Source: Nemertoderma westbladi
Taxonomy: Eukaryota; Animalia; Xenacoelomorpha
Assembly (NCBI GenBank): GCA_032718475.1
Contig: JAUCBJ010009108.1
Location: forward strand, 78,971-142,970
Direction of reading: 5' to 3'
Length of the DNA stretch: 64,000 nt
The position numbers were made by a program, and so were the translations under genes. Below, one piece after another: positions 9,741-64,000 of the stretch. The notes below the pieces were generated by a model. It was not told the DNA's origin and made no database searches. It saw nothing but the letters and a program-made list of their open reading frames with translations. The first letter of the stretch is position 1, and every line of letters starts with the position of its first letter.

Positions 9741-10740
9741 ATGGATGACCTGTCGGCGTCTGTAGTTAGTGGATCTGAGCTCTTTCTGCGAGATTTAGAG
9801 AAAGTTCTTGAGTCATGTTTACGCTTTGCGAGGGACAATTCACACGAAATACATGGACAATATACACACGCCGGTTGTAAGTTGGTGTATGGAATCCTAA
9901 AGGCGACGGGGATCAAAGTACAGATGAATAGAGTTCACAGAATTCTAACTGAAGTTGACCCTGTTTTATCTTCTCAACGATGGGGCGCCCTCGTCACCCG
10001 AAGGAAATACTTTGTTCCTGGGGCAAATTCTCTGTGGCATATAGATGGACATCACAGTTTGATAAGGTTGGTTTGCTTTTTTGTAAGCATTTAAATTAGG
10101 CCCAATCCTAAATATCTTATACAATAAACAATAATTATACTGATTGATGATACAGATTTTCAGTTTGGATAGTGAAAATCCCTTTGCAAAATGGTGGTGA
10201 GTGGGATTTGAACACGGAACTTGGCTTAATAGTCATCAACCAATTAAGCTACCGGTATATTACTGTATACAGTAGTGTTTTACAGTTCATAACTATACAG
10301 TATTTATTTATATTGGTCTTAGATTATATTTATTTTATATTTTAATTGTTATACAGATGGGGTATTATTATTCATGGAGGAGTTGATGGATACTCTCGGT
10401 CGATAGTATATCTACGAGCCAGTTCAAATAACCGTGCAGAGACTGTGTTTACGTCCTTCATCGAAGCAATCAATTTGTTTGGATTTCCATCAAGAGTTCG
10501 TGGTGACAAAGGTGGCGGCGAAAATCGCCGAGTCGCTGATTGGATGATCGAATACTAAGGAACAGATAGAGGAAGCTATATTGCTGGCCGGAGCACCCAT
10601 AACCAGCGTATAGAGCGGCTATGGCGGGATGTATTTAGAGTATATAGTATGTCATTTATACTACAATTTATTTTACTTCTTAGAGCAAAACTCATTACTT
10701 AATTTTGATAACAATAATTTTGATTTACATTGTTACACTG
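9741..10740 (+). pseudogene. IS3EU/IS481-like DDE integrase-core transposase, two exons, disrupted
   Basis: Splicing 10067-10356 (AG|GT...TACAG|A) yields WHIDGHHSLIRWGIIIHGGVDGYSR...RVRGDKGG.EN...[16 protein letters not shown] (D,D,E triad). In-frame TAA at 10556-10558 and a frameshift near 10635. Confidence 0.88.
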
Positions 10741-17170: not shown

Positions 17171-17366
17171 ACGTACCGGTATAATGCCACTTCTATTCAG
17201 GGCTTGATAAATAAATAAGGACTAGAAAGATAGTTTGACCATCAATCGATTTAACGGACCGGTAGATTAATGTAGTAGTCAAACACGTTATTAATTATTC
17301 GCGTTTTGAGTTGCGATATCTTGTTTCTTAAAACGTAAACATTTTTAGTATCAATAAAAATAGTCA

Positions 17367-19654
17367 ATGGCAAATATATTTAGATGTTCAGATCTTCCAG
17401 ATTGCCGAGCACTCAAGGATAATATAACTAGCGGTTATTGGTCGCGGAAACTTTGTGCAATGTTTAAGACATTCGACAAGTTGATAAAATTATCAATGCA
17501 TGGAGTTAGTAAGAACTTTAGAAAGACGGTATTTTTAGATCGTTTCCTATTATTGCTTACAAATCAACGGTTGTTTAATTCAAATGACGTAGTGGATATG
17601 GCTATTGTTGAAAGTTACTACAAAGAAGACGTTCCAGGATGGAAGGACTCCAAGTTACCAGATGCTACAGATATCCCAAAGAAAAGGGGAAGAAGGAAAC
17701 GTGAGACTGCGCTAAATACTCCTCCTACTAAGAAAATATGCACATCTGTTGCGAATAGTTCCAATTCGAATAATTCTGCTCCTCCGGTTGAACACTTCGA
17801 GCTGATCAATAGAAGAACGGCTCAACAACATTATCAGAATGTGTATCTAGACCAACATCAACGAAACTTCTTGCTTCGTTATCGACAGCTGCAAATGGCC
17901 GGGCTACAAGAAAACTCTATACAGCAAACGCTTCATGTTCCTCATCAACAGCTGATATCGCAGCAAGGGCCACTTCAACATTATGAAATCCCTCAGCCTC
18001 AGCCACATATTTTCCGACCACAGCATGGCCTGCAACCGACCCAACATCAGCCCCAACAAGTAATAGGCCTATTCCATACCAAAACCATCATTTTCAAAAG
18101 TGTAATCTGTCAGATAGTTTTCACGAGCCTTTACAAGGCCAAAGACTTACACATTTCAATCAACAATCCCCAAGTTCTTTGACACAACGACAAATGCCAC
18201 AAGCGCAATTTCCACAACCACAATTTCCACAACCACAATCGCTACAGCCACAATTGCCACAACCACAACAATCGCTACAGCCACAATTTCCACAACCACA
18301 ATCGCTACAGCCACAATTGCCACAACCACAACAATCGCTACAGCCACAATTGCCACAACCACAATCGCTACAACTACAATTTACACCATCGTTGTGGGAA
18401 GATCTGAATCCTTATTCGGCATTTTCTATAAGAGATAATATGTCCGTAATTAACATACAAGGGTTGGAGAAAGAAGATGTCACACCAAAGGAGTCGGAGA
18501 ATAATTCAATCAATGAAGCAGCATGCATCAAGGTTGATGAAGAAGGTCATCATCGTGAAGGCGAGCAAAGAAGAAGACAAAAACTTAATACTGAACCAGT
18601 TACGACATGTAGTAACTCAATCTTAGAAACAGTTAGCATTAAAAAAGAATTACCTAATGATATCATGGATTTCTTTCACGATGTATCAAATAATGAAATT
18701 GATGTTGATGTACTTATTCAGTATTCCTTAGAGGAAAAAGAGTTAGTTGATGAAAATATATTTGAAATTGAACATAAACTAGAGGAAGTTAGAGAAACTA
18801 GAGTTAAAGAAGAAAGTATTGGCGAGGCTGCAAATTCCAATGTGTGTAGTCCTGTGGGCTTACATGTTGAGAATTATCTTATTGATTCAACAATGGCCAA
18901 TGAAGGTAACACTGGTGTTGTTAATAGTGATGATAAATATCGTGATGATAACGAAGTCGATATTATATATGAATATAGGCCTATATCAAGTGAAGAAGAA
19001 GACGTGAAACCTAAACTAACTTCTATGTATAGTGGTATCAATAATAGCGTAACAGATGACATTGGTGTTGATGGAGTTAATTGTCAAGAAAAAATCAATA
19101 GTATTCATACACCCAATTATCTACCGAATGTGTCAGATACAAACTTAGAAACTGATACTAAGAGGAGGAGCAAACAGATTGAAAAGCGTTATATGAAAGG
19201 AACAACGGGTCGCCGTCTAAACGAAATTAAGTATAAAATTGACGAAATTGATGGGAAATTAGATAGTTTATTGTGCGAAGTTATTTACGATAGGAAAAAT
19301 GAAACAAAACAGGGTGATAATCAGAATAAGGAAATGTCATTTTCAGAAGGCAGTTCTAATATTTTGGCCACAAAATGGCCCCTCACTTTACAGAAAATCG
19401 ACAAGCCATCTGCGAAGAGTTATCGTTGTTGCGCTCCACCTGATCGTAATGGAATGACTCTGGAGAAATCAACATGTAAAACGGAACAAACCATCATAAA
19501 TGCTGACAAATTTTGTCCATGGCCATCCAGTCTACAAATAATAGATTTTCCCGAAGCAATAAAAAATGTTAAATATCAAGAGTCTCCGTTCCATAGACTA
19601 CGTTCGAATCCTTGTTTAATCCCGTTAATAGTCGACTGTGTGTGTAATGTGTAA
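17367..19654 (+). CDS. Uncharacterised ~750-760-aa Q/P-rich, acidic, probably nuclear protein, split across two overlapping frames
   Basis: ORFs 17367-18182 and 18179-19654; the second frame is open from 17987. They join either by a 1-bp indel at ~18059 or by a 41-bp GT..AG intron at 18060-18100. Has a KKRGRRKR basic motif and PQPQ repeats. Confidence 0.7.
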
Positions 19655-29029: not shown

Positions 29030-30150
29030 AGGATACAGCTTATCGAATCAGTGTTTGTTATTTTTCACAAATTGTCAACCTGTGGTATTGATGGCGTGTG
29101 ACTCAGTGACTCCAGTTGTAGTCAAGGTCCATGAATGCTTAGTCCTAATACATCCCAACATAGGACTATTATTATATGGATGATTTCAGAATCAGCCGTA
29201 TTTGGTCCGTAATCTTTATGGACTTCTTCGAGAACTTCGGTACTTTTCGTACTTTTTCGATATTTAATGCAATTCGTTTGGTGTGGTTGGACGTGGTGAC
29301 GTCCATCAATCCGGGTGGTCAAATAGAAACCGAACTCTATAAAACATTATAATGCAGGTTTAATGCTTAATTTTAATAGCCGACACCCTCGCCTATAGTT
29401 ATCAGAAATTCCGCCTTGAGTAGGCCTACTATCCAGTGGTCCATAAATAGAAGTAGTACACCAGATGCCCAGTCGCGTGCTTTTGCCCGCGTAACCAACA
29501 TTCTAGTACGCAACGACTATCCAACCCACTTGATTAAAGAACTCAATAATACCGCACTCTCCCAGCACAGAAATACCCCAAGACAACGCACACCACCACA
29601 GATCATAGGCTACTTGCACCACTTAGGTTGCCTATCATAAACAATACACAGTAGAACAAATAATACGCAAAATTATTAAGCATTCCATTTTCGTCCCCCG
29701 CACCAGAGTTGTGGGCGAAGCTGGCCTCAAGATTAAAGACTTACTCATTCGCTACGCACTAACTCAACCCCATTTCACCCCATCCCCCCCCCCCCCCCCC
29801 CACCCCACACGCCCCGTGTCCTATACATGTACGAGTGGGATTACAAACTACCCTTACCAAAAATGTGGTGTACCAATTTACCTGCAAACTTTGCCCTGGG
29901 GGCTACATTGGGGAAACTGTGGGACCAGTTCGCGACCGCCTCAGAACGCACCGTAACGCTGTACGTAGGAAAGACCCCGACGAGACTGCATTCGCTACAC
30001 ACTTCCTTACTTTGCACCCCGCACAACAACACATACCCGTCCCATTCTCTGCTCGTCTGCTTCGACGCTGTGCAGGGACTGGGCGGACATTAAACTCGCA
30101 GAGAAGTCGTACATTAGGGAAATGTCCCCTAGCATAAACATACAGTATGG
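29030..30150 (+). mobile_element. Penelope-like retroelement remnant (RT plus GIY-YIG endonuclease), frameshifted
   Basis: YMDDF near 29175; QIETELYK..LNFNSRHP; ILVRNDYP; TKNVVYQFTCKLCPGGYIGET...DRLRTHR...AFATHF (GIY-YIG of PLE type). Confidence 0.85.
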
Positions 30151-32363: not shown

Positions 32364-34587
32364 TTACAATCCGTTGTCCCTAGGGAATCCGTAATGATCG
32401 GGAGGCTGCCTTCTGCGGTGGGCTCGGGTAAGAGGCTCCATATCGAGTCCGCCATCAGCAACACTGTTGGTAGTACGAGGGGGAGACAAACTCAGCGGGT
32501 ACTTGAGTGGTGCCATTGGACTGGTAACTGGGTCATTCTGAGGGTGCTGGGGTGGTTTGACAGGTGACGCATCGATGTTGGACGTGTCGTCATCGTCCTC
32601 GGACGATTCATGAAGACTTAGAACTGGAGACTGATGGTATGGTACACGAAAACATTCCCATGCTCGTGCTCGTATTTGTGACCCCGAGAATTTGCGGACA
32701 CTGGCATAGTCCGCATCGACAGTGGAAACAATATACCGTGGACGTCCATGTAGTATGTATGTATGTATATACTAGAAAGATCTACCAAATTACCAATACT
32801 GATTGGAGGAGACACCTTAATTCGTTAACCGCCACGTGACTTCGATATAGTGCTGGGCTCGTGATTGGCTAGCCGGGACCGATGTTGAGATGTAATGAGG
32901 TCGCTGTCGGACATTGGGAGTTGTTCCCCCGTGAATTGATCCCTCTGGCTAAAAACTTCTCTAGCTGATAGACTTGATGCGCGAATTCTTGAGTTTAATT
33001 GGGCGACGGCGATAGCAATGGATACAGCTGAGTATGGTCCTCCGGTTGGGTGAAGCTTCAATACCTCCTCTTTGAGCTCCCATATTGCGTGCTCTGCTAC
33101 CGGGTTTTATTAACGTTTTTCGCGTCTCCTAACTGGATGTTGAGGTTGTGAGCCATCAACCAGTGTGTGGAAGCCACACACAGGGTTGGTGCGTATAACG
33201 TCGCGGGGCCTGCAATTGGGTAACGTCCAATGCAAAGACACAATAGAGCATCACACAATGTCTCATGGCGCTCGTCTGTGATAAGCGTTGCTGCTGTGTA
33301 AGAGGAAACTGTCTCCTGGATAAGGAGTATCATCTGTTTATTCTGCCGGATGACGTTGGCGGCGAATGAGATTCCAACAACATCTGGTGGGTCTTCTGAC
33401 TTCTGGGGAATGGATCTTCGAGGGGCAGCCTGCAAAGCTACACACTGGGCGCAACGACTATGGCACAATCAATATCTAGGGCACAGAAATATTGTAAAGC
33501 TATACGTCGAAGCTGGGCACGGGACGAGTGCTGTAACTCCAGGTGCATTGACATCAGTAATCCTGGTAAGGCATGGCGGGGAACAATAATAAGATCCCGG
33601 GGTGAGTTAAAAGGAGCCATTTGGCAGTGAATGAGAAGTCCATCTGAGGCCACTGTAGCACAACCAAGGTATCGCTTTATGTCCCTGATGGATGTCTCTT
33701 TTTTGACGGGCGGGTGCCCTGTGACAAGTGCGCCGCTGTGCGGCGTAAATCGGCACAATCTTGTTGAGTGGCTAACCAAGTGCTGCGAGTAGCATATAGT
33801 GGGCAGGATGACGCAGCACTAGCATTATAGTATGACACTCGAATGATGGGTGCCTCAAACAGCTCCTCGACAAACTTACACACTTGGCAGTGTCCATCGG
33901 TGCAGGTTGGTGCTTGTCGGCTTTGGAAGTCGGCAGGAAGGTTTCGTATGCTGGCAATATGGACTACAGCGACATTATGTTGGTTGAGAGTCGCCAGAAA
34001 CGTGGTTAGACGGAGCTGGATGAGTACGCACCACGGCTAAGCTTGGCAGATGCCTCCACACATGGTTTGCTGTCTGTCATGATGATTGATGGGGTGGTTG
34101 ATTGAGTCAGATATGGTGCAAAGTGATGGGTGGCTGATGCTATGGCCAGGGCTTCCATTTCGCACGGGAACCAAGCACGTTGATGCGTTCTGAGCTTTGC
34201 AGAGTAAAATCCAGCAAGATGAAGCGTGGAGTTGCGTTTGGCGTAAAAAAATTGCACCCAATCCATCTGTGCTGGTTGCAGCATCAGTCACGATAAATAG
34301 TTCGTCAGATGAATGGGGAATGACGATTGTCCGGCACGTCTTCAGTGCTGCCTGTGCTCGGCGAAAAGCTGTTAGGGTGACCTCCTCCCAGGCTACTGGA
34401 TCGCTAGGTTGACCACTGACTAATTCATTGAGTGGAGCGACTAGTGCTGAACATCGAGGAAGGACCCGAGCGAGTATTTTGTACGAACCGATAAAGGATC
34501 GCAATGCGCGAAGTGTATCGGGGGTGGTATACGTAGCAAGTGTTGACACAACATGGGGGGATGCGGCAAGTGAGCCGCGACTCCACT
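32364..34587 (-). pseudogene. Ty3/Gypsy pol remnant (end of RT, RNase H, integrase), multiply frameshifted
   Basis: LRSFIG..APLNEL, VTDAA, AGFYSAKL..PCEMEALAIA..TDSKPCV (RNase H); H..LQH..CAQC zinc motif; KNVNK; C-terminal RRRQPPDHYG. Domain order is RT-RH-INT. Confidence 0.88.
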
Positions 34588-34695
34588 TCAACGGACCAGG
34601 TATATAGGCCGTGAGGTGTAGTACCAGTAAGGGTGTGATCTGGCAGTTAGGATCTCACTCAGCACAGGTACGTCCGACTCAGACCGGGACTTACA
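34588..34695 (-). mobile_element. Fragment of the 5' LTR fused directly to RT sequence by an internal deletion
   Basis: Close direct repeat of 31889-31995. Confidence 0.75.
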
Positions 34696-41365: not shown

Positions 41366-43008
41366 ACTACTACGATTGGCATGCTGCATTGCAGCTGCAT
41401 GCATTATATATATATATGACATATATATTAAGAATGCTGTGCCAGCTTGTCGACAAAATTGCGCCACCACAACTCCCTATAACCCATGACATTTGCTAGA
41501 TCATCCGCCTCTTCAAGGCCAGTGTCCTTTAAGATGCGTCTCAAGAAAGTAATGGGCTGTCCACCATGCTTATTCACTCCATGAGGCTGCCAAAGTAAAG
41601 GATTATACACTGGCTAGTCCTCACGGCGAAAGCAATGTCCTGCAAAGCGGAGGCGGCTTTGTTCTAGTATCAAGCTTAGGGGAACCAATGAGACACCTCC
41701 AATGTTATATAGTGTCTGGGTGGAGATGTGTGCATTGTACTTGATACAGTGAACCCGGCATAGCATTCTTGTGAATGTGCCATCCAGAGATTTGGTGTCC
41801 TCAGCAGTTAGAACCCAGCATGGACTCCCATAGAGGAGTACTGGAACTACTGCTGCTCTAAATAATCGGACCTTAAGTTTCCGATTAATTCTCGGTGACT
41901 TCCAAATCCTGGAAAGCCTATTCAAGGCTGCCTATGCCTTTCCCTTACGTATTCGAAGGTCATCGCCTGACTTCCGGATCCATGATCCCAGGTAACAGAA
42001 GTCGTCCACATGCTCAAGCATGAGCTTATGCACATCCGGTCAGAGACTTGCAGATTGAATTGACCATTGTAGATAAGTCATCAGCAAAGTCTAGATCAGT
42101 TAGGTACTTGGCAGAATTTCCTCGACTTTTGGAGCCAGTAGGTGGAGTTACCATCACCCCATCATCATTGTAATGATCTAAGGACATGCGTAGAACATAG
42201 AATGACATGTCGCTAGTGTGTCTCCATGAAGGACTCCCATAACACTTAAAATGGTTCTGTGTCACCGTTAACAGTCGATCCAAATGTCGTTGAACCATCA
42301 TATACTGATCTGATTGCTGCGATAATTTCATCAGGAATCCCATATAATGAAAGTATGCTCAACATACGTGAGCTAGAAACTGAATTAAATGCCTTGAAGA
42401 AGTCATCAAAGATAACAGCCAGATGCCTGTCTTTCTTTTTTGATAAATTTTCAATTATCCTTCAAAGTGCTAAAATGGACCCCATGGTCCCACGACCTTT
42501 ATGGAACCCATTCTGATTTCCACGGAGCAGTCTCTCAATGGGATCCCTGATGCGATTTAATATAATTCTATTGTATAGCTTTGCAGCAATCGAAATCAGT
42601 GAGATTCCCCGAAAATAACCATAGAATGTTAGGTTGTCCTTCTTGGGAACTGGCACCAACTTATTTGTTTTCATTTCTTGCAGTCCGTTTTGTACATGTC
42701 TACTATGATGGGATAGATGAGCTTTAAACACTCAGGTATTTTAAAGACCTCAGGGGGAACACCATCTACTCCACTGGCACGATTGGTCTTAATGCTCTTT
42801 GCAGCAGCCTCCACTCAGGAGCTATCGCCAATGGGAATATCTGGGAGTACAGACTCAGACACTTTTACTTCTATAAAGTTATCAGGCAATCCCCTGTCAT
42901 TATTGACGAGATTTTTAAAGTGGGCCTTCCAACCATTGAGGCGATCGGCTGGTAATCCTGCCTTAACCTTCGTGGTTGGTTGGTTTTTCCGCCCAGTCAG
43001 CATTAAAT
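41366..43008 (-). mobile_element. 5'-truncated RTE-type LINE, degraded RT
   Basis: VPVPKK..FRGISLISIAAKLYNRIILNRI..NQNGF, LTDLDFADDL, and the same C-terminus and tail as 1-792. TSD tgaaatatca/tgaaatacca. Confidence 0.92.
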
Positions 43009-47093: not shown

Positions 47094-47691
47094 ATTATTG
47101 GAATAATAATATAAGTACATAATATTTAATTAGAAAAAAATCATCTGTATTATTACATTTTGTATTTCCTGCTAATCTGCAGTCCATTTCTCGCATTTCA
47201 GTCTACGCCCACGCACATCACACAACATACAGTACTTATTGTATCTTCCAGATAATAAGTTCCGACATTGACATTGCATGGTGTATGGGAGTGGTGTATT
47301 CCCAAAACCCATTCGGTCTCAGCGCTAATATAAATAAATGTATAAATTAAAATTATAACTGCGAGAAAGACAGTTAGACTGGTGCTACACGAAGGCCCCA
47401 CGCAAATTTTGCGTGGAAAAGAACTAAACTTTTGACAAACTATTTGTGTACCATGTTTGGTTACATTTCGTTGAGGATTGATCGAGTTATTAATGTTCAA
47501 ATATTCGGAACGACAGGTTGATAATTGTACCCCTACGCTAAGGATCACCTTACTCTGTGGCTCTCTCCACCCACAATTAGCTCTTCGACACGTGTAACAC
47601 GCTTCAAAGTCGTTTGAATCTCCCTTAACTGCTCGCAATACTAATTTCCCTACAGCTAAGTCACAATCACAATAATAACAATAACAATCAC

Positions 47692-50600
47692 ACTACTGCA
47701 CGCAATATTAATCTCCCTGGACAATAATAATCTCCCTATTGCACGCAATATTAATCTCCCTGGACAATAATAATCTCCCTATTGCACGCAATATTTATCT
47801 CCCTGGACAATAATAATCTCCCTACTGCACGCAATATTAATCTCCCTGGACAATGAAAATCTCCCTACTGCACGCAATATTAATCTCCCTGGACAATAAT
47901 AATCTCGCTATTGCACGCAATATTAATCTCCCTGGACAATAATAATCTCCCTACTGCACGCAATATTAATCTCCCTGGACAATAATAATCTCCCTACTGC
48001 ACGCAATATTAATCTCCCTGGACAATAATAATCTCCCTACTGCACGCAATATTAATCTACCTGGACAATAATAATCTCGCTATTGCACGCAATATTAATC
48101 TCCCTGGACAATAATAATCTCCCTACTGCACGCAATATTAATCTCCCTGGACAATAATAATCTCCCTACTGCACGCAATATTAATCTCCCTGGACAATAA
48201 TAATCTCCCTACTGCACGCAATATTAATCTCCCTGGACAATAATAATCTCGCTATTGCACGCAATATTAATCTCCCTGGACAATAATAATCTCCCTACTG
48301 CACGCAATATTAATCTCCCTGGACAATAATAATCTCCCTACTGCACGCAATATTAATCTCCCTGGACAATAATAATCTCCCTACTGCACGCAATATTAAT
48401 CTCCCTGGACAATAATAATCTCGCTATTGCACGCAATATTAATCTCCCTGGACAATAATAATCTCCCTACTGCACGCAATATTAATCTCCCTGGACAATA
48501 ATAATCTCCCTACTGCACGCAATATTAATCTCCCTGGACAATAATAATCTCCCTACTGCACGCAATATTAATCTCCCTGGACAATAATAATCTCGCTATT
48601 GCACGCAATATTAATCTCCCTGGACAATAATAATCTCCCTACTGCACGCAATATTAATCTCCCTGGACAATAATAATCTCGCTATTGCACGCAATATTAA
48701 TCTCCCTGGACAATAATAATCTCCCTACTGCACGCAATATTAATCTCCCTGGACAATAATAATCTCCCTACTGCACGCAATATTAATCTCACTGGACAAT
48801 AATAATCTCCCTACTGCACGCAATATTAATCTCCCTGGACAATAATAATCTCCCTATTGCACGCAATATTAATCTCCCTGGACAATAATAATCTCCCTAC
48901 TGCACGCAATATTAATCTCCCTGGACAATAATAATCTCCCTACTGCACGCAATATTAATCTCCCTGGACAATAATAATCTCCCTACTGCACGCAATATTA
49001 ATCTCCCTGGACAATAATAATCTCGCTATTGCACGCAATATTAATCTCCCTGGACAATAATAATCTCCCTACTGCACGCAATATTAATCTCCCTGGACAA
49101 TAATAATCTCCCTACTGCACGCAATATTAATCTCCCTGGACAATAATAATCTCCCTACTGCACGCAATATTAATCTCCCTGGACAATAATAATCTCGCTA
49201 TTGCACGCAATATTAATCTCCCTGGACAATAATAATCTCCCTACTGCACGCAATATTAATCTCCCTGGACAATAATAATCTCCCTACTGCACGCAATATT
49301 AATCTCCCTGGACAATAATAATCTCCCTACTGCACGCAATATTAATCTCCCTGGACAATAATAATCTCGCTATTGCACGCAATATTAATCTCCCTGGACA
49401 ATAATAATCTCCCTACTGCACGCAATATTAATCTCCCTGGACAATAATAATCTCGCTATTGCACGCAATATTAATCTCCCTGGACAATAATAATCTCCCT
49501 ACTGCACGCAATATTAATCTCCCTGGACAATAATAATCTCCCTACTGCACGCAATATTAATCTCCCTGGACAATAATAATCTCCCTACTGCACGCAATAT
49601 TAATCTCCCTGGACAATAATAATCTCGCTATTGCACGCAATATTAATCTCCCTGGACAATAATAATCTCCCTACTGCACGCAATATTAATCTCCCTGGAC
49701 AATAATAATCTCGCTATTGCACGCAATATTAATCTCCCTGGACAATAATAATCTCCCTACTGCACGCAATATTAATCTCCCTGGACAATAATAATCTCCC
49801 TACTGCACGCAATATTAATCTCACTGGACAATAATAATCTCCCTACTGCACGCAATATTAATCTCCCCACTGCATGCAATAATAATCTCCCTACTGCACG
49901 CAATATTAAATTCCCTGGACAATAATAATCTCCCTACTGCACGCAATATTAATCTCCATGGACAATAATAATCTCCCTATTGCACGCAATATTTATCTCC
50001 CTGGACAATAATAATCTCCCTACTGCACGCAATATTAATCTCCCTGGACAATAATAATCTCCCTACTGCACGCAATATTAATCTCCCTGGACAATAATAA
50101 TCTCGCATTGCACGCAATATTAATCTCCCTGGACAATAATAATCTCCCTACTGCACGCAATATTAATCTCCCCACTGCATGCAATAATAATCTCCCTACT
50201 GCACGCAATAATAATCTCCCTACTGCACGCAATATTAAACTCCCTGGACAATAATAATCTCCCTACTGCACGCAATATTAATCTCCATGGACAATAATAA
50301 TCTCCCTATTGCACGCAATATTTATCTCCCTGGACAATAATAATCTCCCTACTGCACGCAATATTAATCTCCCTGGACAATAATAATCTCCCTACTGCAC
50401 GCAATATTAATCTCCCTGGACAATAATAATCTCGCATTGCACGCAATATTAATCTCCCTGGACAATAATAATCTCCCTACTGCACGCAATATTAATCTCC
50501 CTGGACAATAATAATCTCCCTACTGCACGCAATATTAATCTCCCTGGACAATAATAATCTCGCATTGCACGCAATATTAATCTCCCTGGACAATAATAAT

Positions 50601-53600
50601 CTCCCTACTGCACGCAATAATAATCTCCCTACTGCACGCAATATTAATCTCCCTGGACAATAATAATCTCGCTATTGCACGCAATATTAATCTCCCTGGA
50701 CAATAATAATCTCCCTACTGCACGCAATATTAATCTCCCTGGACAATAATAATCTCCCTACTGCACGCAATATTAATCTCCCTGGACAATAATAATCTCG
50801 CTATTGCACGCAATATTAATCTCCCTGGACAATAATAATCTCCCTACTGCACGCAATATTAATCTCCCTGGACAATAATAATCTCGCTATTGCACGCAAT
50901 ATTAATCTCCCTGGACAATAATAATCTCCCTACTGCACGCAATATTAATCTCCCTGGACAATAATAATCTCCCTACTGCACGCAATATTAATCTCCCTGG
51001 ACAATAATAATCTCCCTACTGCACGCAATATTAATCTCCCTGGACAATAATAATCTCGCTATTGCACGCAATATTAATCTCCCTGGACAATAATAATCTC
51101 CCTACTGCACGCAATATTAATCTCCCTGGACAATAATAATCTCCCTACTGCACGCAATATTAATCTCCCTGGACAATAATAATCTCCCTACTGCACGCAA
51201 TATTAATCTCCCTGGACAATAATAATCTCGCTATTGCACGCAATATTAATCTCCCTGGACAATAATAATCTCCCTACTGCACGCAATATTAATCTCCCTG
51301 GACAATAATAATCTCGCTATTGCACGCAATATTAATCTCCCTGGACAATAATAATCTCCCTACTGCACGCAATATTAATCTCCCTGGACAATAATAATCT
51401 CCCTACTGCACGCAATATTAATCTCCCTGGACAATAATAATCTCCCTACTGCACGCAATATTAATCTCCCTGGACAATAATAATCTCGCTATTGCACGCA
51501 ATATTAATCTCCCTGGACAATAATAATCTCCCTACTGCACGCAATATTAATCTCCCTGGACAATAATAATCTCGCTATTGCACGCAATATTAATCTCCCT
51601 GGACAATAATAATCTCCCTACTGCACGCAATATTAATCTCCCTGGACAATAATAATCTCCCTACTGCACGCAATATTAATCTCACTGGACAATAATAATC
51701 TCCCTACTGCACGCAATATTAATCTCCCCACTGCATGCAATAATAATCTCCCTACTGCACGCAATATTAAACTCCCTGGACAATAATAATCTCCCTACTG
51801 CACGCAATATTAATCTCCATGGACAATAATAATCTCCCTATTGCACGCAATATTTATCTCCCTGGACAATAATAATCTCCCTACTGCACGCAATATTAAT
51901 CTCCCTGGACAATAATAATCTCCCTACTGCACGCAATATTAATCTCCCTGGACAATAATAATCTCGCATTGCACGCAATATTAATCTCCCTGGACAATAA
52001 TAATCTCCCTACTGCACGCAATATTAATCTCCCCACTGCATGCAATAATAATCTCCCTACTGCACGCAATATTAATCTCCCTGGACAATAATAATCTCCC
52101 TACTGCACGCAATATTAATCTCCCTGGACAATAATAATCTCCCTACTGCACGCAATATTTATCTCCCTGGACAATAATAATCTCCCTACTGCACGCAATA
52201 TTAATCTCCCTGGACAATAATAATCTCCCTACTGCACGCAATATTAATCTCCCTGGACAATAATAATCTCCCTACTGCACGCAATATTAATCTCCCTGGA
52301 CAATAATAATCTCCCTACTGCACGCAATATTAATCTCCCTGGACAATAATAATCTCCCTACTGCACGCAATATTAATCTCCCTGGACAATAATAATCTCC
52401 CTACTGCCAGCAATATTAATCTCTCTGGACAATAATAATCTCCCTACTGCACGCAATATTAATCTCCCCACTGCATGCAATAATAATCTCCCTACTGCAC
52501 GCAATATTAATCTCCCTGGACAATAATAATCCCCCTACTGCACGCAATATTAATCTCCCTGGACAATAATAATCTCCCTACTGCACGCAATATTAATCTC
52601 CCTGGACAATAATAATCTCCCTACTGCACGCAATATTAATCTCCCCACTGCATGCAATAATAATCTCCCTACTGCACGCAATATTAATCTCCCTGGACAA
52701 TAATAATCCCCCTACTGCACGCAATATTAATCTCCCTGGACAATAATAATCTCCCTACTGCACGCAATATTAATCTCCCCACTGCATGCAATAATAATCT
52801 CCCTACTGCACGCAATATTAATCTCCCTGGACAATAATAATCTCCCTACTGCACGCAATATTAATCTCCCTGGACAATAATAATCTCCCTACTGCACGCA
52901 ATATTAATCTCCCCACTGCATGCAATAATAATCTCCCTACTGCACGCAATATTAATCTCCCTGGACAATAATAATCCCCCTACTGCACGCAATATTAATC
53001 TCCCTGGACAATAATAATCTCCCTACTGCACGCAATATTAATCTCCCCACTGCATGCAATAATAATCTCCCTACTGCACGCAATATTAATCTCCCTGGAC
53101 AATAATAATCTCCCTACTGCCAGCAATATTAATCTCCCTGGACAATAATAATCTCCCTACTGCACGCAATATTAATCTCCCCACTGCATGCAATAATAAT
53201 CTCCCTGCTGCACGCAATATTAATCTCCCTGGACAATAATAATCTCCCTACTGCACGCAATATTAATCTCCCTGGACAATAATAATCTCCCTACTGCACG
53301 CAATATTAATCTCCCTGGACAATAATAATCTCCCTACTGCACGCAATATTAATCTCCCTGGACAATAATAATCTCCCTACTGCACGCAATATTAATCTCC
53401 CTGGACAATAATAATCTCCCTACTGCACGCAATATTAATCTCCCTGGACAATAATAATCCCCCTACTGCACGCAATATTAATCTCCCTGGACAATAATAA
53501 TCCCCCTACTGCACGCAATATTAATCTCCCTGGACAATAATAATCCCCCTACTGCACGCAATATTAATCTCCCTGGACAATAATAATCCCCCTACTGCAC

Positions 53601-55602
53601 GCAATATTAATCTCCCTGGACAATAATAATCCCCCTACTGCACGCAATATTAATCTCCCTGGACAATAATAATCCCCCTACTGCACGCAATATTAATCTC
53701 CCTGGACAATAATAATCCCCCTACTGCACGCAATATTAATCTCCCTGGACAATAATAATCTCCCTACTGCACGCAATATTAATCTCCCTGGACAATAATA
53801 ATCCCCCTACTGCACGCAATATTAATCTCCCTGGACAATAATAATCCCCCTACTGCACGCAATATTAATCTCCCTGGACAATAATAATCCCCCTACTGCA
53901 CGCAATATTAATCTCCCTGGACAATAATAATCCCCCTACTGCACGCAATATTAATCTCCCTGGACAATAATAATCCCCCTACTGCACGCAATATTAATCT
54001 CCCTGGACAATAATAATCCCCCTACTGCACGCAATATTAATCTCCCTGGACAATAATAATCCCCCTACTGCACGCAATATTAATCTCCCTGGACAATAAT
54101 AATCCCCCTACTGCACGCAATATTAATCTCCCTGGACAATAATAATCCCCCTACTGCACGCAATATTAATCTCCCTGGACAATAATAATCCCCCTACTGC
54201 ACGCAATATTAATCTCCCTGGACAATAATAATCTCCCTACTGCACGCAATATTAATCTCCCTGGACAATAATAATCCCCCTACTGCACGCAATATTAATC
54301 TCCCTGGACAATAATAATCTCCCTACTGCACGCAATATTTATCTCCCTGGACAATAATAATCTCCCTACTGCACGCAATATTAATCTCCCTGGACAATAA
54401 TAATCTCCCTACTGCACGCAATATTAATCTCCCTGGACAATAATAATCCCCCTACTGCACGCAATATTAATCTCCCTGGACAATAATAATCCCCCTACTG
54501 CACGCAATATTAATCTCCCTGGACAATAATAATCTCCCTACTGCCAGCAATATTAATCTCCCTGGACAATAATAATCTCCCTACTGCACGCAATATTAAT
54601 CTCCCCACTGCATGCAATAATAATCTCCCTGCTGCACGCAATATTAATCTCCCTGGACAATAATAATCTCCCTACTGCACGCAATATTAATCTCCCTGGA
54701 CAATAATAATCTCCCTACTGCACGCAATATTTATCTCCCTGGACAATAATAATCTCCCTACTGCACGCAATATTAATCTCCCTGGACAATAATAATCTCC
54801 CTACTGCACGCAATATTAATCTCCCTGGACAATAATAATCTCCCTACTGCACGCAATATTAATCTCCCTGGACAATAATAATCTCCCTACTGCACGCAAT
54901 ATTAATCTCCCTGGACAATAATAATCTCCCTACTGCACGCAATATTAATCTCCCTGGACAATAATAATCTCCCTACTGCACGCAATATTAATCTCCCTGG
55001 ACAATAATAATCTCCCTACTGCACGCAATATTAATCTCCCTGGACAATAATAATCTCCCTACTGCACGCAATATTAATCTCCCTGGACAATAATAATCTC
55101 CCTACTGCACGCAATATTTATCTCCCTGGACAATAATAATCTCCCTACTGCACGCAATATTAATCTCCCTGGACAATAATAATCTCCCTACTGCACGCAA
55201 TATTAATCTCCCTGGACAATAATAATCTCCCTACTGCACGCAATATTAATCTCCCTGGACAATAATAATCTCCCTACTGCACGCAATATTAATCTCCCTG
55301 GACAATAATAATCTCCCTACTGCACGCAATATTAATCTCCCTGGACAATAATAATCTCCCTACTGCACGCAATATTTATCTCCCTGGACAATAATAATCT
55401 CCCTACTGCACGCAATATTAATCTCCCTGGACAATAATAATCTCCCTACTGCACGCAATATTAATCTCCCTGGACAATAATAATCTCCCTACTGCACGCA
55501 ATATTAATCTCCCTGGACAATAATAATCTCCCTACTGCACGCAATATTAATCTCCCTGGACAATATTAATCTCCCTGGACAATAATAATCTCCCTACTGC
55601 AC
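47692..55602. repeat. 43-bp satellite array, ~7.9 kb, ~180 units (CCCTACTGCACGCAATATTAATCT + CCCTGGACAATAATAATCT)
   Basis: Directly visible. Made of 24-bp and 19-bp related subunits, with no unique spacers. Confidence 0.98.
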
Positions 55603-57944: not shown

Positions 57945-58550
57945 AGATTGGAGAACTGCGGACTGATCAACCTCCTCAGTAAAGTATAGCCTATATCATA
58001 GTAGATGCCTACCAAGTTTCAGCCTAAATGGATTAAAAACAATCAAATGAGATCAGGTTTTCACTTTGAGACATTTCGCCCTCTAGCGGCAGACTGGGGA
58101 ACTTCCGACTACTCTGCGACTCCATAAAAGATATAGCCTATATTTTAATAGATACCTACCAAGTTTCAGCCTAAATGAATTAAAAACAATGAAATGAGAT
58201 CAGGTTTTCACTTTGAGACATTTCGCCCTCTAGCGGCAGACTAGGGAACTTCAGACTACTCTGCAACTTCGTAAAAGATATAGCCTATATTGTAATAGAT
58301 ACCTACCAAGTTTCAGCGTAAATGAATTAAAAGCAATCAAATGAGATCAGGTTTTCACTTTGGGACATTTTGCCCTCTAGCGGCAGACTGGGGAAATTCA
58401 GACGACTCAGCAACTCCTTAAAAGATATAGCCTATAGCGTAGTAGTTGCTTACCAAGTTTAAACCTAAGCGGATTGTAAATAACAAAGTTAGAGAAGATG
58501 TTAATTTTCAGATAATGCGCCCTCTAGTGGCAGACTATAGAACTGTAGAT
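57945..58550. repeat. 147-bp tandem repeat x4, each with a CTCF-like motif
   Basis: tagccta at 57987, 58134, 58281 and 58428. (t/g)(c/t)gccctctag(c/t)ggc in each unit. Confidence 0.85.
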
Positions 58551-59471: not shown

Positions 59472-60312
59472 TAACTATTTACATACTTGTGTGTAAAGTA
59501 GCACTTTACAGTGTGATGATCCGAGTGGCTTTGTTACACGAACGAACGTTAGTGAGTGAGTGAAAATAAAGCCACGAGGATCAGAATACTGTAAAGTACT
59601 TTGCAACAAGTATGTATGTAGTTTTGTTCCAAAATTTTAACATTACGAAATGATTGTACATATACATTCTGTAAGTGATGCACAAATTAAATTAGTTGCT
59701 GTATAAATAAATGTAAAAATGACATAAATTATGTTATAAATAAGTTAGCTTATATTTATGGTGGCGTTTGGCCATGTTATAATAATATAGCTAGGCTCTA
59801 CTGGTTATTAATAGCTATACCCCGCCTACCGGCAGGTAATGCAGACAGCAGACAGCCTATCTGGCTGTCAGGCAAATTTCCACCTATTGTTTACGTGGTA
59901 ACCAATGACGCCGTTAAGGAATGTCCCCTTAGTGGACATTACTTAACGCCGCCATTGGTTACCACGTAAAGCCGGCACAGCATTCTTAAAAATGCATCTG
60001 CAATGCAGCATGCCGATCCTAGTAGTAGTACCACGTAAACAATAACACCAAATACAATACTAAATGTACAGGCCAATACAATGCTGTAATGTCCTCTAAA
60101 GTTGTAAAGTGCTAATTAACAACTCGCTGTTAACACTAACGGCGTGAGTAATGTTACAATTTTGGAATAAAGTACTTTACAGTGTTCTGACCATCTTATA
60201 TTTATTTTTATTTGCGCTTACAGACTAATGTTAAAGTCGCACGTGTCAATACTGTATAACTCAGATCATCATGCTGTAAAGTGCAACTTTACACACAAGA
60301 ATGTAAATAATT
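59472..60312. mobile_element. Full non-autonomous DNA element with ~55-bp TIRs (a partial copy precedes it at 59049-59470)
   Basis: tatttacatacttgtgtgtaaagt.gcactttacag..tgatgatc.gagt is inverted at 60259-60312. Confidence 0.7.
59971..60028 (+). mobile_element. 58-bp extremely 5'-truncated copy of the RTE-type LINE
   Basis: Matches 734-792 including the (TAG)n tail. 11-bp TSD taccacgtaaa (59960-59970 and 60029-60039). Confidence 0.9.
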
Positions 60313-60565
60313 ATTACTTTAGTTTGTAATCGCGTCGAAAGGGGATCAGACCTCGGAATTTCCGGGATAGGGACCGGAATTGCATTGCCACTATCGGGAT
60401 CCCGGTTTTTCGGGATCAGGATCCCATTTACACACTATTTTGTAATTTAAACTGCCATTTGTATCACTCACTAAATTATTTTGTTTAAATTATTTAATTG
60501 TTTTTCTTTTAGATTCAATTGACATCCATAATCAAACTGTGTTACACTCTATAGTCGCAGGAGGC

Positions 60566-63500
60566 ATGGCGTTAAAGAAATCCGTTGTTAAAAACATTTC
60601 TGAGCAGTACCATCATTTAAACTACATGGTCCAATCTGCAGCTTTGATAAACTCAGTTGATAAGTATCTTAGCCGCAAGTACATGACTTTAGCACACAAA
60701 TTATCTAAGAAAGCTGTTATACGCATGGACACTGATCTTAAGCGAATGACTTGCAAGCATTGCCATAGCCTGCTGGAGGCGCATGTATCGGCGACTTTGC
60801 GACTTAGATCGGGTAATCGCAAACATTCTGTTCTTACTTGCCATAACTGTGGTAACCAAAAGAAGATTTATTATAACAACAGACCTCAAGAACTATGGAG
60901 CAAGAACCCCTTAGGTGCGGAAATTCACGAGAAACAATATGTAGTAAAAGATCATAAAGAAAGCGTTAATGAAGGTACTCTTGGGAAAATATCAAAACCT
61001 GGTAATGGTTTGAATGATAAATTTAACTCAGATTGTAATAACATTGTAGTACCTGCATCTAAAGAAGTAGATAGTTTGGAGCATCAGTATATATCATTGC
61101 TCAATATGTATGGTAAAACTAAAAACTTGTCAGCACTATGGGATGATTTTCTGGAAGTCCTGGAACAATTTAAGATAAGGAAATTAGGTCTACCATGTGA
61201 GATCCCTAGCCGCTTGAAAAGTATGTTGACTGCGGCAGATAAATATGCGGGCTTGTTTGTGAAGAATGATGCCAAAGATAACATTAAAGTAGTAAATAGG
61301 ACTATTGATTCAATGAATTTGGCTGATGTTGATCCAAAAATGGCCATGACCAGCACATTTTGCCATCTGTGGTCTGATACAACTAATGTGAACCTCCCCC
61401 TTCCGCCATGGTTGGAAGTTGGTTCTGGTAGTGATGGTTTACCAATTCCTCCTAAGTGCCGACCGCCACCTTTGTCATTCTGGTCAGCTATGTCATGCTA
61501 TCCACCTGAGTGGAAAATGCACAGAAATAAGATCAATCATCCTCGAATGAGCGACTTTGCTGAATTCATATCCATTTATGAGCACAACCTGGAGAGAATT
61601 AACCATGTGGACGTGGAACATCCTGTCAGTGATACTCCAACATCTCCGGATCCTTCTGCTGTCATTATCACTTCCAAATCGGGCTTGATTAATCCCCTTG
61701 ATTCCAGCTTTGAAGAACAGCCTAGTTTGTCTTTCGCAGCCGAAATTGTGAAGACGAGACTTGTATGTAGGAATAAAATAGTACAAGTTGATTCGCAGGA
61801 AGATTCAATGACATTGCGTTATAAAACAGTCCCTCTTCCTGGGCCTGCCCCAACTGAACCTCAACCACTCACTTATTCTGGGACCGTCTCAGATTTTGGA
61901 TTAGCTCCACTTCCAGACCCCATAGCAGCTCCACCATTGCCCAACGATGACCGAGCTCCACCACCTCCATCTCCAATACCTTCAACAGATGTTACACAAA
62001 TGCGTGATTTGAACAAGACCATGAAAATACCACTGGACTTTGATATCTCCAATTTGTATGACAATGATTTCTTATATAATTCGTTTGATGAACTACCAGG
62101 TCTGCAAATTGTTGAACCAGAAGGATTTGATGTGGAATTCTTTACTGGTAAACCAGAAGATTCCCTTCCAAAGTCAAGTTTAAAAAATATTCAAATTGGC
62201 TTAACATCTCCTTGCCAATCAACCTCAAAGCGACGCTTTTCACATTTAAGCCCTGATTATGATACTGGTCCAAAAAAACATAGATACAGTGAATCAGAAG
62301 GCATCTCACCTGGAGGTTGTCTGCAAATAGTTGAACCAGAGTCGTATGACTCTGAAAGCCCAGATGGAGAACACAATGGCAGTTACTGTAAAGTTTCCGA
62401 TAACATAAATAAAGACATCAGGGTGGGGGAAATTGGAAAAGAAAACGTTGCTAGCCCTAGATCGGAAGCTAAATTGAATTTTGCTATAGAAAAGGGACAT
62501 TATTCGTTAGTTCAACCAGAGTCATATGATATTGGGAATGAAGACCCAGTCAAACATAATCCTCAAGTAGGGAGTGATGCAAGGCACGCAGTAGAGAAAA
62601 TAAGTTTAGATAGCCAAAATAGTCCAGTTCGTGATCTACAAAATATTCTAAAACGGGAGTGTAGTAGTAGCAATGAGTTTCTTGAACAGTGCAATAGTGA
62701 TAAAGCCGAAAATTTTGGAATAGTCAAACCAACTGGAAGTGAAAAAGCATTGGATGATACAAATATGGTAATCGCCACAGATGTAGATATAGAAGTAGGT
62801 CTACCATTTGTCGGAAAACAGTGCAATGTTGACAATATCCAAGGCAATATTGATCAAAAAATGGATAGTTATTCAGATAACAATGGTAACTCATTTAAAC
62901 AAGATGTTGACATGAGATGTTCATTAGATGTGGATATGAGAATTCCTGATATCGACATGAGACTTATGAGTGCAAATAATAGTCATACGATCAATACGGA
63001 ATCATTTACTAAAGAATCTTATGGGTTGAATATTAGTAACGTGGTAAGTCATTGTAATAATCGTACAATTCCAGACGTCAGTAGCGAGGAGGTGTCTGGG
63101 GGTTGGGAAGCAGCTTCTTGTAGTTGGCCTTCCTATGTACATCGTATCGATATACCGAGAAGTGTAATTCGTACCCATTGGAAGGAGAAGCGTCATCAGC
63201 CACGGATATTGGAGGGAAATATAGTGTGGGAGTGGCAATGTAAGGATATTGTACCTGTTGATCCGCGAATAGCTAGTGCCGAGGTTCGCGCGAAAAGAAA
63301 CTTAGAACGGGATGCCTACAATATGAAGAAATATAAAATTAAATCGTCTCATAAAGAGAAAAATGAGATGTCCAAGTTTTTGAATTCATATCTCGAACCA
63401 ATTTCATTTAAACCCAAGGGAATCGTGATTGCAGAGACCATAAAGGAACCACGACCAGCTCCTTATACCGAAATTGTTACTGATTTGGTCAAGAAGGACG

Positions 63501-63742
63501 CTAACCAGGTATTCAAAGACCCCAGGATTAGGAACAGAGTACCTCTCCATAAAACTCAAAGTAATCAAATGAGTATAATGGATGAGACTACAGCTAGTGG
63601 ACTTATAGTGGAAACTGACCCAAAACTTAATGTTACCATGGACCCCGTAGTCCCTATGCAAATTAACCACCATAAAACCCAGGTTTATAAAGATCCACGT
63701 ATCCGAGACAAGACTGTTGCGACCAACCCCAACCAGAACTAA
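60566..63742 (+). CDS. RPP21: RNase P Rpr2/RPP21-domain protein with a ~940-aa C-terminal extension (1058 aa from the first ATG)
   Basis: N-terminal ~115 aa: HLNYMVQSA..LSRKY..LSKKAVIRMDTDLKRMTCKHCHSLL..LTCHNCGNQK..LW, the Rpr2 CxxC..CxxC pattern. Uninterrupted 3.2-kb ORF. A strong splice acceptor (tttttcttttAG) ends at 60512. Confidence 0.85.
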   Translation: MALKKSVVKNISEQYHHLNYMVQSAALINSVDKYLSRKYMTLAHKLSKKAVIRMDTDLKRMTCKHCHSLLEAHVSATLRLRSGNRKHSVLTCHNCGNQKKIYYNNRPQELWSKNPLGAEIHEKQYVVKDHKESVNEGTLGKISKPGNGLNDKFNSDCNNIVVPASKEVDSLEHQYISLLNMYGKTKNLSALWDDFLEVLEQFKIRKLGLPCEIPSRLKSMLTAADKYAGLFVKNDAKDNIKVVNRTIDSMNLADVDPKMAMTSTFCHLWSDTTNVNLPLPPWLEVGSGSDGLPIPPKCRPPPLSFWSAMSCYPPEWKMHRNKINHPRMSDFAEFISIYEHNLERINHVDVEHPVSDTPTSPDPSAVIITSKSGLINPLDSSFEEQPSLSFAAEIVKTRLVCRNKIVQVDSQEDSMTLRYKTVPLPGPAPTEPQPLTYSGTVSDFGLAPLPDPIAAPPLPNDDRAPPPPSPIPSTDVTQMRDLNKTMKIPLDFDISNLYDNDFLYNSFDELPGLQIVEPEGFDVEFFTGKPEDSLPKSSLKNIQIGLTSPCQSTSKRRFSHLSPDYDTGPKKHRYSESEGISPGGCLQIVEPESYDSESPDGEHNGSYCKVSDNINKDIRVGEIGKENVASPRSEAKLNFAIEKGHYSLVQPESYDIGNEDPVKHNPQVGSDARHAVEKISLDSQNSPVRDLQNILKRECSSSNEFLEQCNSDKAENFGIVKPTGSEKALDDTNMVIATDVDIEVGLPFVGKQCNVDNIQGNIDQKMDSYSDNNGNSFKQDVDMRCSLDVDMRIPDIDMRLMSANNSHTINTESFTKESYGLNISNVVSHCNNRTIPDVSSEEVSGGWEAASCSWPSYVHRIDIPRSVIRTHWKEKRHQPRILEGNIVWEWQCKDIVPVDPRIASAEVRAKRNLERDAYNMKKYKIKSSHKEKNEMSKFLNSYLEPISFKPKGIVIAETIKEPRPAPYTEIVTDLVKKDANQVFKDPRIRNRVPLHKTQSNQMSIMDETTASGLIVETDPKLNVTMDPVVPMQINHHKTQVYKDPRIRDKTVATNPNQN

Positions 63743-64000
63743 CCAGGATTAATCCAAACACTTTTGTTGGTAATTTAGAAATATAAACTCCCACATTGAC
63801 TCGCATATTTTTATAAAAATTCCTTCAGTAACCGATGTTACATTGTCTTGGACTTTGTATTACCTATTTTGGTGAAAACTGCTGGTAAATTTGTCTAGAA
63901 AGAAAAACTAAAATTTAATACAATTTTATTTACTTATTTATGTACTAAAAAATAGTTAGTAGGCCTACGTGGTCGCTCTGACGGCGTTCAGGTAAAAATA

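What the first reader, a model, noticed from the sequence alone, without database searches (positions are those of the whole stretch)
60566..63742. Giant RPP21/Rpr2-domain protein with a Pol II termination-factor-like tail (DVDMR x3, DPR x3)
Seen: a single 3.2-kb ORF whose first ~115 aa form an Rpr2 zinc-binding domain. It is followed by a possibly folded helical region (~aa 165-345), a Pro-rich stretch, three [IL]V[EQ]PEx[YF]D repeats and a bipartite NLS-like KRR..KKHR. Further on are DVDMR/DVDMR/DIDMR (62903-62962) and VDPRI, KDPRIR, KDPRIR (63257, 63515, 63689). Established: RPP21 is normally a ~150-aa RNase P subunit. DPR and DxD[LM]R short motifs are typical of disordered regions in 3'-end/termination factors such as ZC3H4/Su(s) and PCF11, and DPR motifs are implicated in WDR82 binding. 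Inference: a lineage-specific fusion or paralogue that could link an RNase P/MRP-type module to Pol II termination or RNA-surveillance machinery.
Basis: partly seen in the sequence, partly recalled or inferred. Interest (0 to 1): 0.85.

Follow-up and report, generated by a model that had tools for sequence, protein, structure and literature searches.

The report
RNase P subunit with giant tail
An unbroken animal reading frame joins RPP21, a normally small subunit of the tRNA-trimming enzyme RNase P, to a 930-residue tail with no detectable relative, whose repeated short motifs likely dock on the transcription-termination adaptor WDR82 and would tie RNase P to RNA polymerase II control.

Summary
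60566-63742 (+) is one 1058-codon frame. Residues 13-115 are an RNase P-type RPP21 domain (Pfam Rpr2 E=1.3e-15; human RPP21 E=2e-7, both CxxC pairs, no RMP24-type insertion). Two 11-residue DPR copies keep the peptide while third codon positions have drifted (3 of 11 identical), which points to selection on the protein. New here: the tail also matches the two other published WDR82-binding motif classes (LxxP, IPLD); all three classes occur together in 5 of 40,000 shuffles, using a relaxed DPR rule. Against: the motifs lie hundreds of residues apart, strict LxDPR is absent, no ZC3H4, PCF11 or PNUTS domain was detected, and no homologue of the tail was found in any search, so conservation is untested. 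There is no genome or transcript, so splicing and a separate short RPP21 are open. Verdict: a real, apparently undescribed RPP21 architecture; the WDR82 link is my best reading (about 40% as an RNase P tether) but is inferred from short motifs in one sequence.

The parts
60500..60512 (+). Pyrimidine-rich stretch ending in TAG, a possible splice acceptor 53 nt before the ATG; the frame is open from 60446, so either a 5' UTR intron or an upstream coding exon is possible
   Evidence: Read by eye; open frame. It has 10 of 13 pyrimidines and did not pass the 11-of-13 filter
60566..63742 (+). Single ORF, 1058 aa; ATG context ggcATGg
60602..60910 (+). RPP21/Rpr2 domain (aa 13-115): helical hairpin, zinc ribbon with CxxC at 60752 and 60839, and the C-terminal LW segment aligned to human RPP21
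   Evidence: Pfam PF04032 E=1.3e-15, 57.8 bits vs cut-off 29.3; 6ahr_K E=2.2e-7, 1.2e-8 with the domain alone
61058..61600 (+). Region aa 165-345, predicted helical at low confidence; no family assigned
   Evidence: pLDDT below 55 in every 10-residue block; no hit at cut-off
61388..61411 (+). VNLPLPPW (aa 275-282), match to the published LxxP WDR82-binding consensus
   Evidence: consensus from PMC12187157; match and shuffle rate 2,515 of 40,000
62027..62038 (+). IPLD (aa 488-491), identical to the motif of PNUTS and ZC3H4 predicted in print to contact WDR82
   Evidence: shuffle rate 975 of 40,000
62108..62530 (+). Three [IL]V[EQ]PEx[YF]D copies (aa 515, 588, 648); partner unknown; the first two look like a DNA-level duplication
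   Evidence: (5 of 11 codons identical, 3 synonymous, 3 changed)
62228..62284 (+). Bipartite NLS-like stretch KRR...KKHR (aa 555-573), between the first two PE repeats
   Evidence: pattern match; function inferred
62903..62962 (+). DVDMR, DVDMR, DIDMR (aa 780-799); partner unknown
   Evidence: codons mostly identical between copies, as for a local duplication
63257..63271 (+). First DPR (VDPRI, aa 898-902), after two Trp and before a predicted helix (aa 900-921)
63506..63538 (+). Second DPR, QVFKDPRIRNR (aa 981-991)
63680..63712 (+). Third DPR, QVYKDPRIRDK (aa 1039-1049); same peptide as the second, with synonymous drift
   Evidence: codon-position identity 8, 9 and 3 of 11; flanks 19 of 60 and 9 of 30 bases identical

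Best explanation
The frame encodes an RNase P-type RPP21 domain followed by a 930-residue, predicted mostly disordered tail, which is likely translated as one protein and likely docks on WDR82 through its DPR, IPLD and LxxP motifs while the head is predicted to sit in RNase P. Shown: one open frame, the RPP21 domain with all four zinc ligands, coding-type base pattern along the tail, and the motifs. Inferred: (1) the head binds RPP29 and RPP38 as human RPP21 does; (2) the tail hangs off the holoenzyme; (3) the DPR copies enter the aromatic pocket of WDR82 and the other two motifs its grooves; (4) this would bring RNase P, or an RPP21-RPP29 module, to WDR82-bound Pol II complexes (restrictor, PNUTS-PP1, SET1), where it could cut tRNA-like folds in nascent RNA or compete for WDR82. 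The tail most likely came from an exon of a fast-evolving WDR82-binding factor captured in frame; no donor was found.
For: Domain; ten best Atlas hits with a family share the Rpr2 family or clan, RPP21 clusters 0.86-0.88 above RMP24 clusters 0.80 (scores under 0.9 are leads only). PMC13184271 (passages): RMP24 has a large central insertion that RPP21 lacks; the alignment to human RPP21 shows only 1-3-residue gaps over aa 13-115. Tail is coding: 0 stops vs mean 63; stops 61 and 123 in the other two plus frames, with more in the third frame in each of 5 tail segments; GC at codon position 1 above position 2 in each of 5 tail segments. Protein-level selection on the DPR copies: best 11-residue repeat score 47, reached by 1 of 600 local shuffles, with 3 of 11 third positions identical. 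Motif classes defined independently in PMC12187157 (section 9 read): LxxP, IPLD and hydrophobic-x-DPR together in 5 of 40,000 global and 3 of 40,000 local shuffles. DPR is required for WDR82 binding by SET1A (PMC9911701 passages) and by fission-yeast Symplekin (PMC13710762 section 10). The two pocket aromatics named there align to positions that are F in 16 of 16 and 15 of 16 (one Y) fetched WDR82 homologues.
Against: No homologue of the tail or of the long form in any search, so nothing shows that the motifs are conserved. Strict LxDPR is absent; I relaxed L to L/I/F/Y/V, and the first DPR fails even that. In ZC3H4 the three motifs lie within residues 939-971 and in PNUTS LxxP and IPLD within 461-523; here they lie at 275, 488 and 983/1041. 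The LxxP match sits in a Pro/Leu-rich stretch and alone is unremarkable (6-8% of shuffles). No RVxF and no ARS2-type acidic motif (both patterns recalled), and no CCCH, CID or TFIIS-type Pfam domain. The patterns were tested after seeing the sequence. The head departs from the family at two spots (His for the Arg before LN; EA for the PG kept in human and two archaeal chains). This animal's own WDR82, RPP29 and any second RPP21 were not seen (no genome).
Confidence: 0.4

Rival explanations
1. The long protein is a working RPP21 whose tail is under selection for other partners or rides along as a passenger; the WDR82-type matches are coincidental or bind another WD40 protein.
For: Motifs are 3-8 residues, far apart and in one sequence only. 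The PE and DxDMR repeats have no known partner. PMC13710762 notes that another WD40 protein, CstF-50, reads a similar DPK motif, and the tail has two DPK. Unchecked notes of this scan report archaeal Rpp21 carrying unrelated C-terminal passengers.
Against: All three published WDR82 motif classes co-occur (5 of 40,000 shuffles), and the best-kept internal repeat is centred on DPR.
Confidence: 0.3
2. This is a derived paralogue: a short canonical RPP21 elsewhere serves RNase P, and here the RPP21 domain has been co-opted as the RNA-binding or RPP29-binding head of a WDR82-docking factor, in the place that CCCH fingers take in ZC3H4/Su(s).
For: Same motif evidence as the best reading; two substitutions at conserved spots of the head; the coding region is intron-free over 3.2 kb, as a retrocopy or chimera would be; RPP21 and RPP29 act outside tRNA processing in human cells (PMC12016569 passages; PMC4814222 and PMC5430778, listing only).
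Against: The head keeps both CxxC pairs, the KR before the first, and the RPP21-type C-terminal LW segment. Other intron-free genes are reported from this genome in unchecked notes. No second copy in the window (tblastn).
Confidence: 0.17
3. The gene model is wrong: the product is a short RPP21 made by splicing or early polyadenylation, or this frame is the last exon of a still longer gene, or an unexpressed young chimera.
For: A weak donor-like site at aa 137 and others at aa 211, 827, 843, 892, 982; AATAAA inside the ORF at 61772 and 62408 and none in 63701-64000, only variants. An acceptor-like site lies upstream with the frame open through it.
Against: 933 codons without a stop and coding-type periodicity in every segment cannot be intron or UTR; no acceptor-like site passed the filter inside the ORF. 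The ATG gives a natural RPP21 start (query aa 13 aligns to human aa 9).
Confidence: 0.13

Closest known systems
Human RPP21 (PDB 6AHR chain K, 154 aa) and archaeal Rpp21/RNP4 (1X0T, 2K3R, 6K0A)
   Same: Helical hairpin plus zinc-ribbon sequence, four Cys, C-terminal LW segment; aligned over aa 13-115.
   Different: Solved members are 120-154 aa and RPP21-named Atlas clusters 144-196 aa; this one is 1058 aa.
RMP24/C18orf21 and yeast Snm1 (RNase MRP counterparts)
   Same: Same fold family; takes RPP21's position in MRP (PMC13184271).
   Different: No central insertion here; no Pfam Rmp24-like hit at E up to 0.1 or 1; no chain named RMP24 or Snm1 among the 7 PDB hits.
ZC3H4/Suppressor of sable (restrictor) and PNUTS
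   Same: Large, predicted disordered proteins using IPLD, LxxP and (ZC3H4) LxDPR motifs on WDR82; the tail matches these classes.
   Different: No CCCH fingers, no RVxF, no detectable sequence homology, motifs dispersed instead of clustered; head is RPP21.
Other DPR-bearing WDR82 partners: SET1A/B, fission-yeast Symplekin, and (proposed in print) PCF11 and TASOR
   Same: DPR tripeptide in a flexible region.
   Different: None of their folded domains was detected; DPR use shows a shared adaptor, not membership of a termination-factor family.
TRIM39-RPP21 read-through (human)
   Same: RPP21 joined to other sequence (name seen in the listing; its nature as a read-through fusion is recalled).
   Different: There RPP21 is the C-terminal part and joined by splicing (recalled); here it is N-terminal within one open frame.

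Membership tests
Rpr2/RPP21/SNM1 family (PF04032) | Profile score above the curated cut-off | tested here: met
   57.8 bits vs 29.3, profile 2-90 of 90
Rpr2/RPP21/SNM1 family (PF04032) | Two CxxC zinc-ligand pairs | tested here: met
   C63/C66 and C92/C95
RNase P-specific RPP21 | No RMP24-type central insertion; C-terminal segment as in human RPP21 | tested here: met
   PMC13184271; near-ungapped alignment to aa 115
RNase P-specific RPP21 | Assembly with RPP29, RPP38 and RNase P RNA; supports pre-tRNA cleavage | not testable with these tools
   No genome or partner sequences of this animal
RMP24/Snm1 (RNase MRP) | Large central insertion and Rmp24-like profile | tested here: not met
ZC3H4/ZC3H6/Su(s) | CCCH zinc fingers | tested here: not met
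   No such Pfam hit on the whole protein or on 8 tail fragments
ZC3H4/ZC3H6/Su(s) | Clustered IPLD, LxDPR and LxxP motifs | tested here: inconclusive
   All classes matched, DPR with F/Y in place of L, but spread over about 770 residues
PNUTS/PPP1R10 | RVxF PP1-binding motif | tested here: not met
   No match to the recalled RVxF pattern
PCF11 | CTD-interacting domain and zinc fingers (recalled) | tested here: not met
   No Pfam or PDB hit
WDR82-binding proteins (functional class) | DPR motif present | tested here: met
   Three copies
WDR82-binding proteins (functional class) | DPR conserved across orthologues | not testable with these tools
   No orthologue found
WDR82-binding proteins (functional class) | DPR-dependent binding shown by experiment | not testable with these tools
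   Needs pull-down or co-IP

The most novel reading that the evidence does not exclude
In this animal lineage RNase P is hard-wired to the Pol II termination adaptor: its RPP21 subunit carries a multivalent WDR82-docking tail, so the ribozyme is recruited to nascent Pol II transcripts and acts as a cleavage step in early termination or surveillance of tRNA-like, repeat-derived RNA.
Probability: 0.2. Interest if true: 0.85.

Novelty: new variant of a known kind. Interest (0 to 1): 0.5.

Why it matters
Roles of RNase P subunits on chromatin and in Pol II-related processes are reported, but the review passages I read leave the way they are recruited open (PMC12016569). A natural protein joining RPP21 to WDR82-docking motifs would name a recruitment route and make it testable with three point mutants. 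If the tail proves a passenger, the finding is still an unusually long RPP21, of modest interest. In the searched library no paper holds RPP21, RNA polymerase II and WDR82 together, and the listings show no long RPP21; subscription journals are mostly not covered.

Tried and rejected
Genome: none is held, so a second RPP21, this animal's WDR82 and an upstream exon could not be sought. Expression: no RNA holder was listed, so no reads were laid; this is no evidence either way. Complex prediction of a WDR82 homologue from another animal (L017, 313 aa) with aa 878-1000: verdict 'no answer', runs 0.47, 0.30, 0.01, median 0.30 under the mark 0.34, controls not folded, my alignment not used; no evidence for or against. 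Only this one segment was tried; the LxxP and IPLD regions and the third DPR were not in it. Homologue searches: whole protein, 0 of 5,945 candidates; aa 1-125 among longer proteins, 0 of 197; aa 775-1050 at E up to 10, 0 of 542; aa 126-1058 against 1.84 billion representatives, 0 at E up to 0.001; Atlas aa 770-1058, no usable hit; exact sequence not in the collection; aa 1-125 in metagenome contigs, 0 of 127 stretches confirmed; no look-alike window in this scan. Since word-based searches missed even the RPP21 domain, these blanks mostly show that no close relative is sampled. Proteins of normal RPP21 length were not searched by sequence. Folds: single-sequence models of the whole protein (mean pLDDT 32) and aa 160-350 (35) are unusable; Foldseek on the latter gave nothing at E up to 0.001. 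By-eye resemblances that I recalled, of aa 170-245 to the N-terminal TFIIS-type domain of PNUTS and of aa 945-990 to the C-terminal half of Su(s)-like proteins, got no support from PDB or Pfam and were not compared directly, since no such sequence was fetched. Weak PDB hits to plant HMA domains (E 0.3-1.7) are taken as chance. Transposon origin of the tail: no hit and no second copy in the window. No Rfam match in the window. PMC9023261 and PMC10760643 hold no 'DPR' in the main text; the supplements of PMC13710762 were listed only, and its main supplement, with motif alignments that may bear on the motif rules, was too large to read.
Full report
Setting. The window is repeat-rich DNA of about 38% GC with broken retroelement pieces (all below Pfam cut-offs). 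Unchecked notes on other pieces of the same genome call it a fast-evolving animal. No genome is held and I did not identify the species.

The frame. 60566-63742 (+) is one ORF of 1058 residues under the standard code, by far the longest stop-free stretch among the 48 of 100 codons or more in the window. The ATG context is ggcATGg. A pyrimidine-rich stretch ending in TAG lies at 60500-60512 and the frame is open from 60446, so an upstream exon, coding or not, is possible; this site has 10 of 13 pyrimidines and missed my 11-of-13 filter, which listed no acceptor anywhere in 60001-64000. The tail (aa 126-1058) has 0 stops against a mean of 63 and a minimum of 39 in 2,000 base shuffles; the other plus frames have 61 and 123 stops and the minus frames 41, 28 and 53. 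In each of 5 tail segments GC at codon position 1 exceeds position 2 and the third frame has more stops than the second. The tail is therefore coding sequence throughout, not read-through into a UTR. Donor-like sites exist (aa 137, 211, 827, 843, 892, 982), there are two AATAAA inside the ORF and only variant hexamers after the stop, so isoforms cannot be excluded.

The head. Pfam Rpr2 matches aa 18-96 at E=1.3e-15, the only family at E up to 1 for the whole protein. PDB hits are archaeal Rpp21, human RPP21 (aa 13-115) and, weakly, yeast Rpr2. Both CxxC pairs are intact. PMC13184271 (passages) says that the MRP counterpart RMP24 has a large central insertion that RPP21 lacks and that the RPP21 C-terminus folds back with RPP38 to hold the RNA; the alignment to human RPP21 has only 1-3-residue gaps and runs through the LW segment. 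Atlas neighbours of aa 1-350 are RPP21 clusters (0.86-0.88; 144-196 aa) ahead of Rmp24-like ones (0.80), all under 0.9 and so leads only. Two conserved spots differ (His for Arg before LN; EA for PG). I read the head as RNase P-type RPP21.

The tail's relatives. None was found: 0 of 5,945, 0 of 197 and 0 of 542 candidates, 0 hits among 1.84 billion representatives, no usable Atlas hit, no Pfam hit at cut-off on 8 fragments, no PDB hit better than E=0.33. The word-based searches did not recover even RPP21 relatives, so the lineage is poorly sampled and the blanks say little on conservation. Structure models without alignment are unusable. A crude hydropathy-charge index is zero or negative in all 13 windows starting from aa 481 to 961 and positive in most windows between aa 161 and 491, so 'mostly disordered' is a prediction, firmer for the C-terminal half.

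The motifs. Three or more DPR arise in 179 of 100,000 shuffles and two or more DxD[ML]R in 21, but shuffles hold 7.3 triple tripeptides on average, against 13 observed. The best internal repeat is QVFKDPRIRNR / QVYKDPRIRDK: score 47, reached by 1 of 600 local shuffles; identity by codon position is 8, 9 and 3 of 11, and the flanks are at background. Of 11 codons 2 are identical, 6 differ synonymously and 3 change conservatively. The peptide is thus kept, or arrived at twice, without DNA likeness beyond what the peptide needs, which points to selection on the protein; the pair was picked for its peptide likeness, so the shuffle rate is the test, not the synonymous count. The DxDMR and PE copies share more codons and look like local duplications.

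What DPR means in print. DPR-to-AAA abolishes WDR82 binding of the SET1A N-terminus (PMC9911701, passages). A crystal structure shows fission-yeast Symplekin DPR in a pocket lined by two Phe, and the paper lists ZC3H4, SET1A and, as proposals, PCF11 and TASOR as DPR users (PMC13710762, passages and section 10). PMC12187157 (passages and section 9) defines from AlphaFold models three motifs: IPLD, LxDPR and an LxxP consensus. Applied to this protein: one LxxP match (aa 275-282), one IPLD (aa 488-491), no strict LxDPR, two F/Y-K-DPR. Shuffle rates per 40,000: 2,515, 975 and 2,503 (at least one relaxed DPR); all three together 5, or 3 with local shuffling. Against this, the published motifs are clustered within 33 residues in ZC3H4 and 63 in PNUTS, whereas here they are about 210 and 500 residues apart. 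From 118 metagenome loci, 19 gave uninterrupted WDR82-like frames; 16 were aligned, leaving out 3 identical or near-identical to L046. The first is related along its length to the fission-yeast chain 9scd_D (E=4.6e-45), and by my count along that alignment the two pocket Phe map to positions that are F in 16 of 16 and 15 of 16 rows. So the pocket is general, though this animal's WDR82 was not seen. For the DxD[LM]R motif I found no relevant paper (listings only); its link to termination factors is recalled.

Mechanism. Best reading (0.40): one long RPP21 that joins RNase P by its head and docks on WDR82 by its tail, so tethering the ribozyme, or an RPP21-RPP29 module, to WDR82-containing Pol II complexes. 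Rivals: tail selected for other partners or a passenger (0.30); a paralogue co-opted as head of a restrictor-like factor (0.17); a wrong gene model (0.13). Taken together I put WDR82 binding at a little over even odds. Human RPP21 and RPP29 have reported roles at DNA breaks and in H3.3 deposition (PMC12016569 passages; listing), which makes a chromatin-side role plausible but does not test it.

Comparison and novelty. The head is a member of the RPP21 family by every feature I could test. The tail works, at best, like the WDR82-binding regions of ZC3H4/Su(s) and PNUTS, but fails membership of those families and of PCF11: no CCCH, RVxF or CID; PMC4691828 (passages) notes that Su(s) and ZC3H4 themselves share little sequence outside the fingers, so a captured disordered exon could be beyond detection. 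No paper in the library holds RPP21, RNA polymerase II and WDR82 together; searches for duplicated, extended or fused RPP21 listed 1, 2 and 1 papers, none on such a protein by title and abstract start. I rate it a new variant of a known kind. Interest 0.5: the architecture is real and odd, but it is a single sequence without transcript, orthologue or binding evidence.

Noticed in passing
window 57981-58544: A 147-bp tandem repeat carries GCCCTCTAG(C/T)GGCA four times, at 58078, 58225, 58372 and 58519; by recall this resembles a CTCF-binding core. It lies 2 kb upstream of the RPP21 frame. The copy number reflects the repeat, not independent sites.
   Followed up: partly
window 47678-55576: A 7.9-kb array of 182 copies of a 43-bp unit, 95% matches, with strong GC skew.
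   Followed up: no
window 17364-19654 (+): Two overlapping stop-free frames (272 and 555 codons) in different phases with Gln/Pro-rich 15-bp repeats and an acidic stretch; no Pfam hit at cut-off. Possibly one gene with an intron or a frameshift.
   Followed up: partly
window 1-606 (+) and 41614-41931 (-): Two near-identical translated fragments that look like the end of a non-LTR retrotransposon polymerase (by eye; DUF6451 E=2.5e-5 below cut-off for the first).
   Followed up: partly
window 33097-34654 (-): Broken LTR-retrotransposon pol-like pieces in several frames (RT RNase H-like, E=0.003, below cut-off).
   Followed up: partly
window 29763-30137 (+) and 9738-10094 (+): A GIY-YIG-like fragment (E=0.0065) and an integrase-like fragment (rva_4, E=8.5e-5), both below cut-off.
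   Followed up: partly
window 60566-63742, aa 256 and 1018: Two DPK tripeptides besides the three DPR; PMC13710762 mentions DPK as a similar motif read by CstF-50.
   Followed up: no
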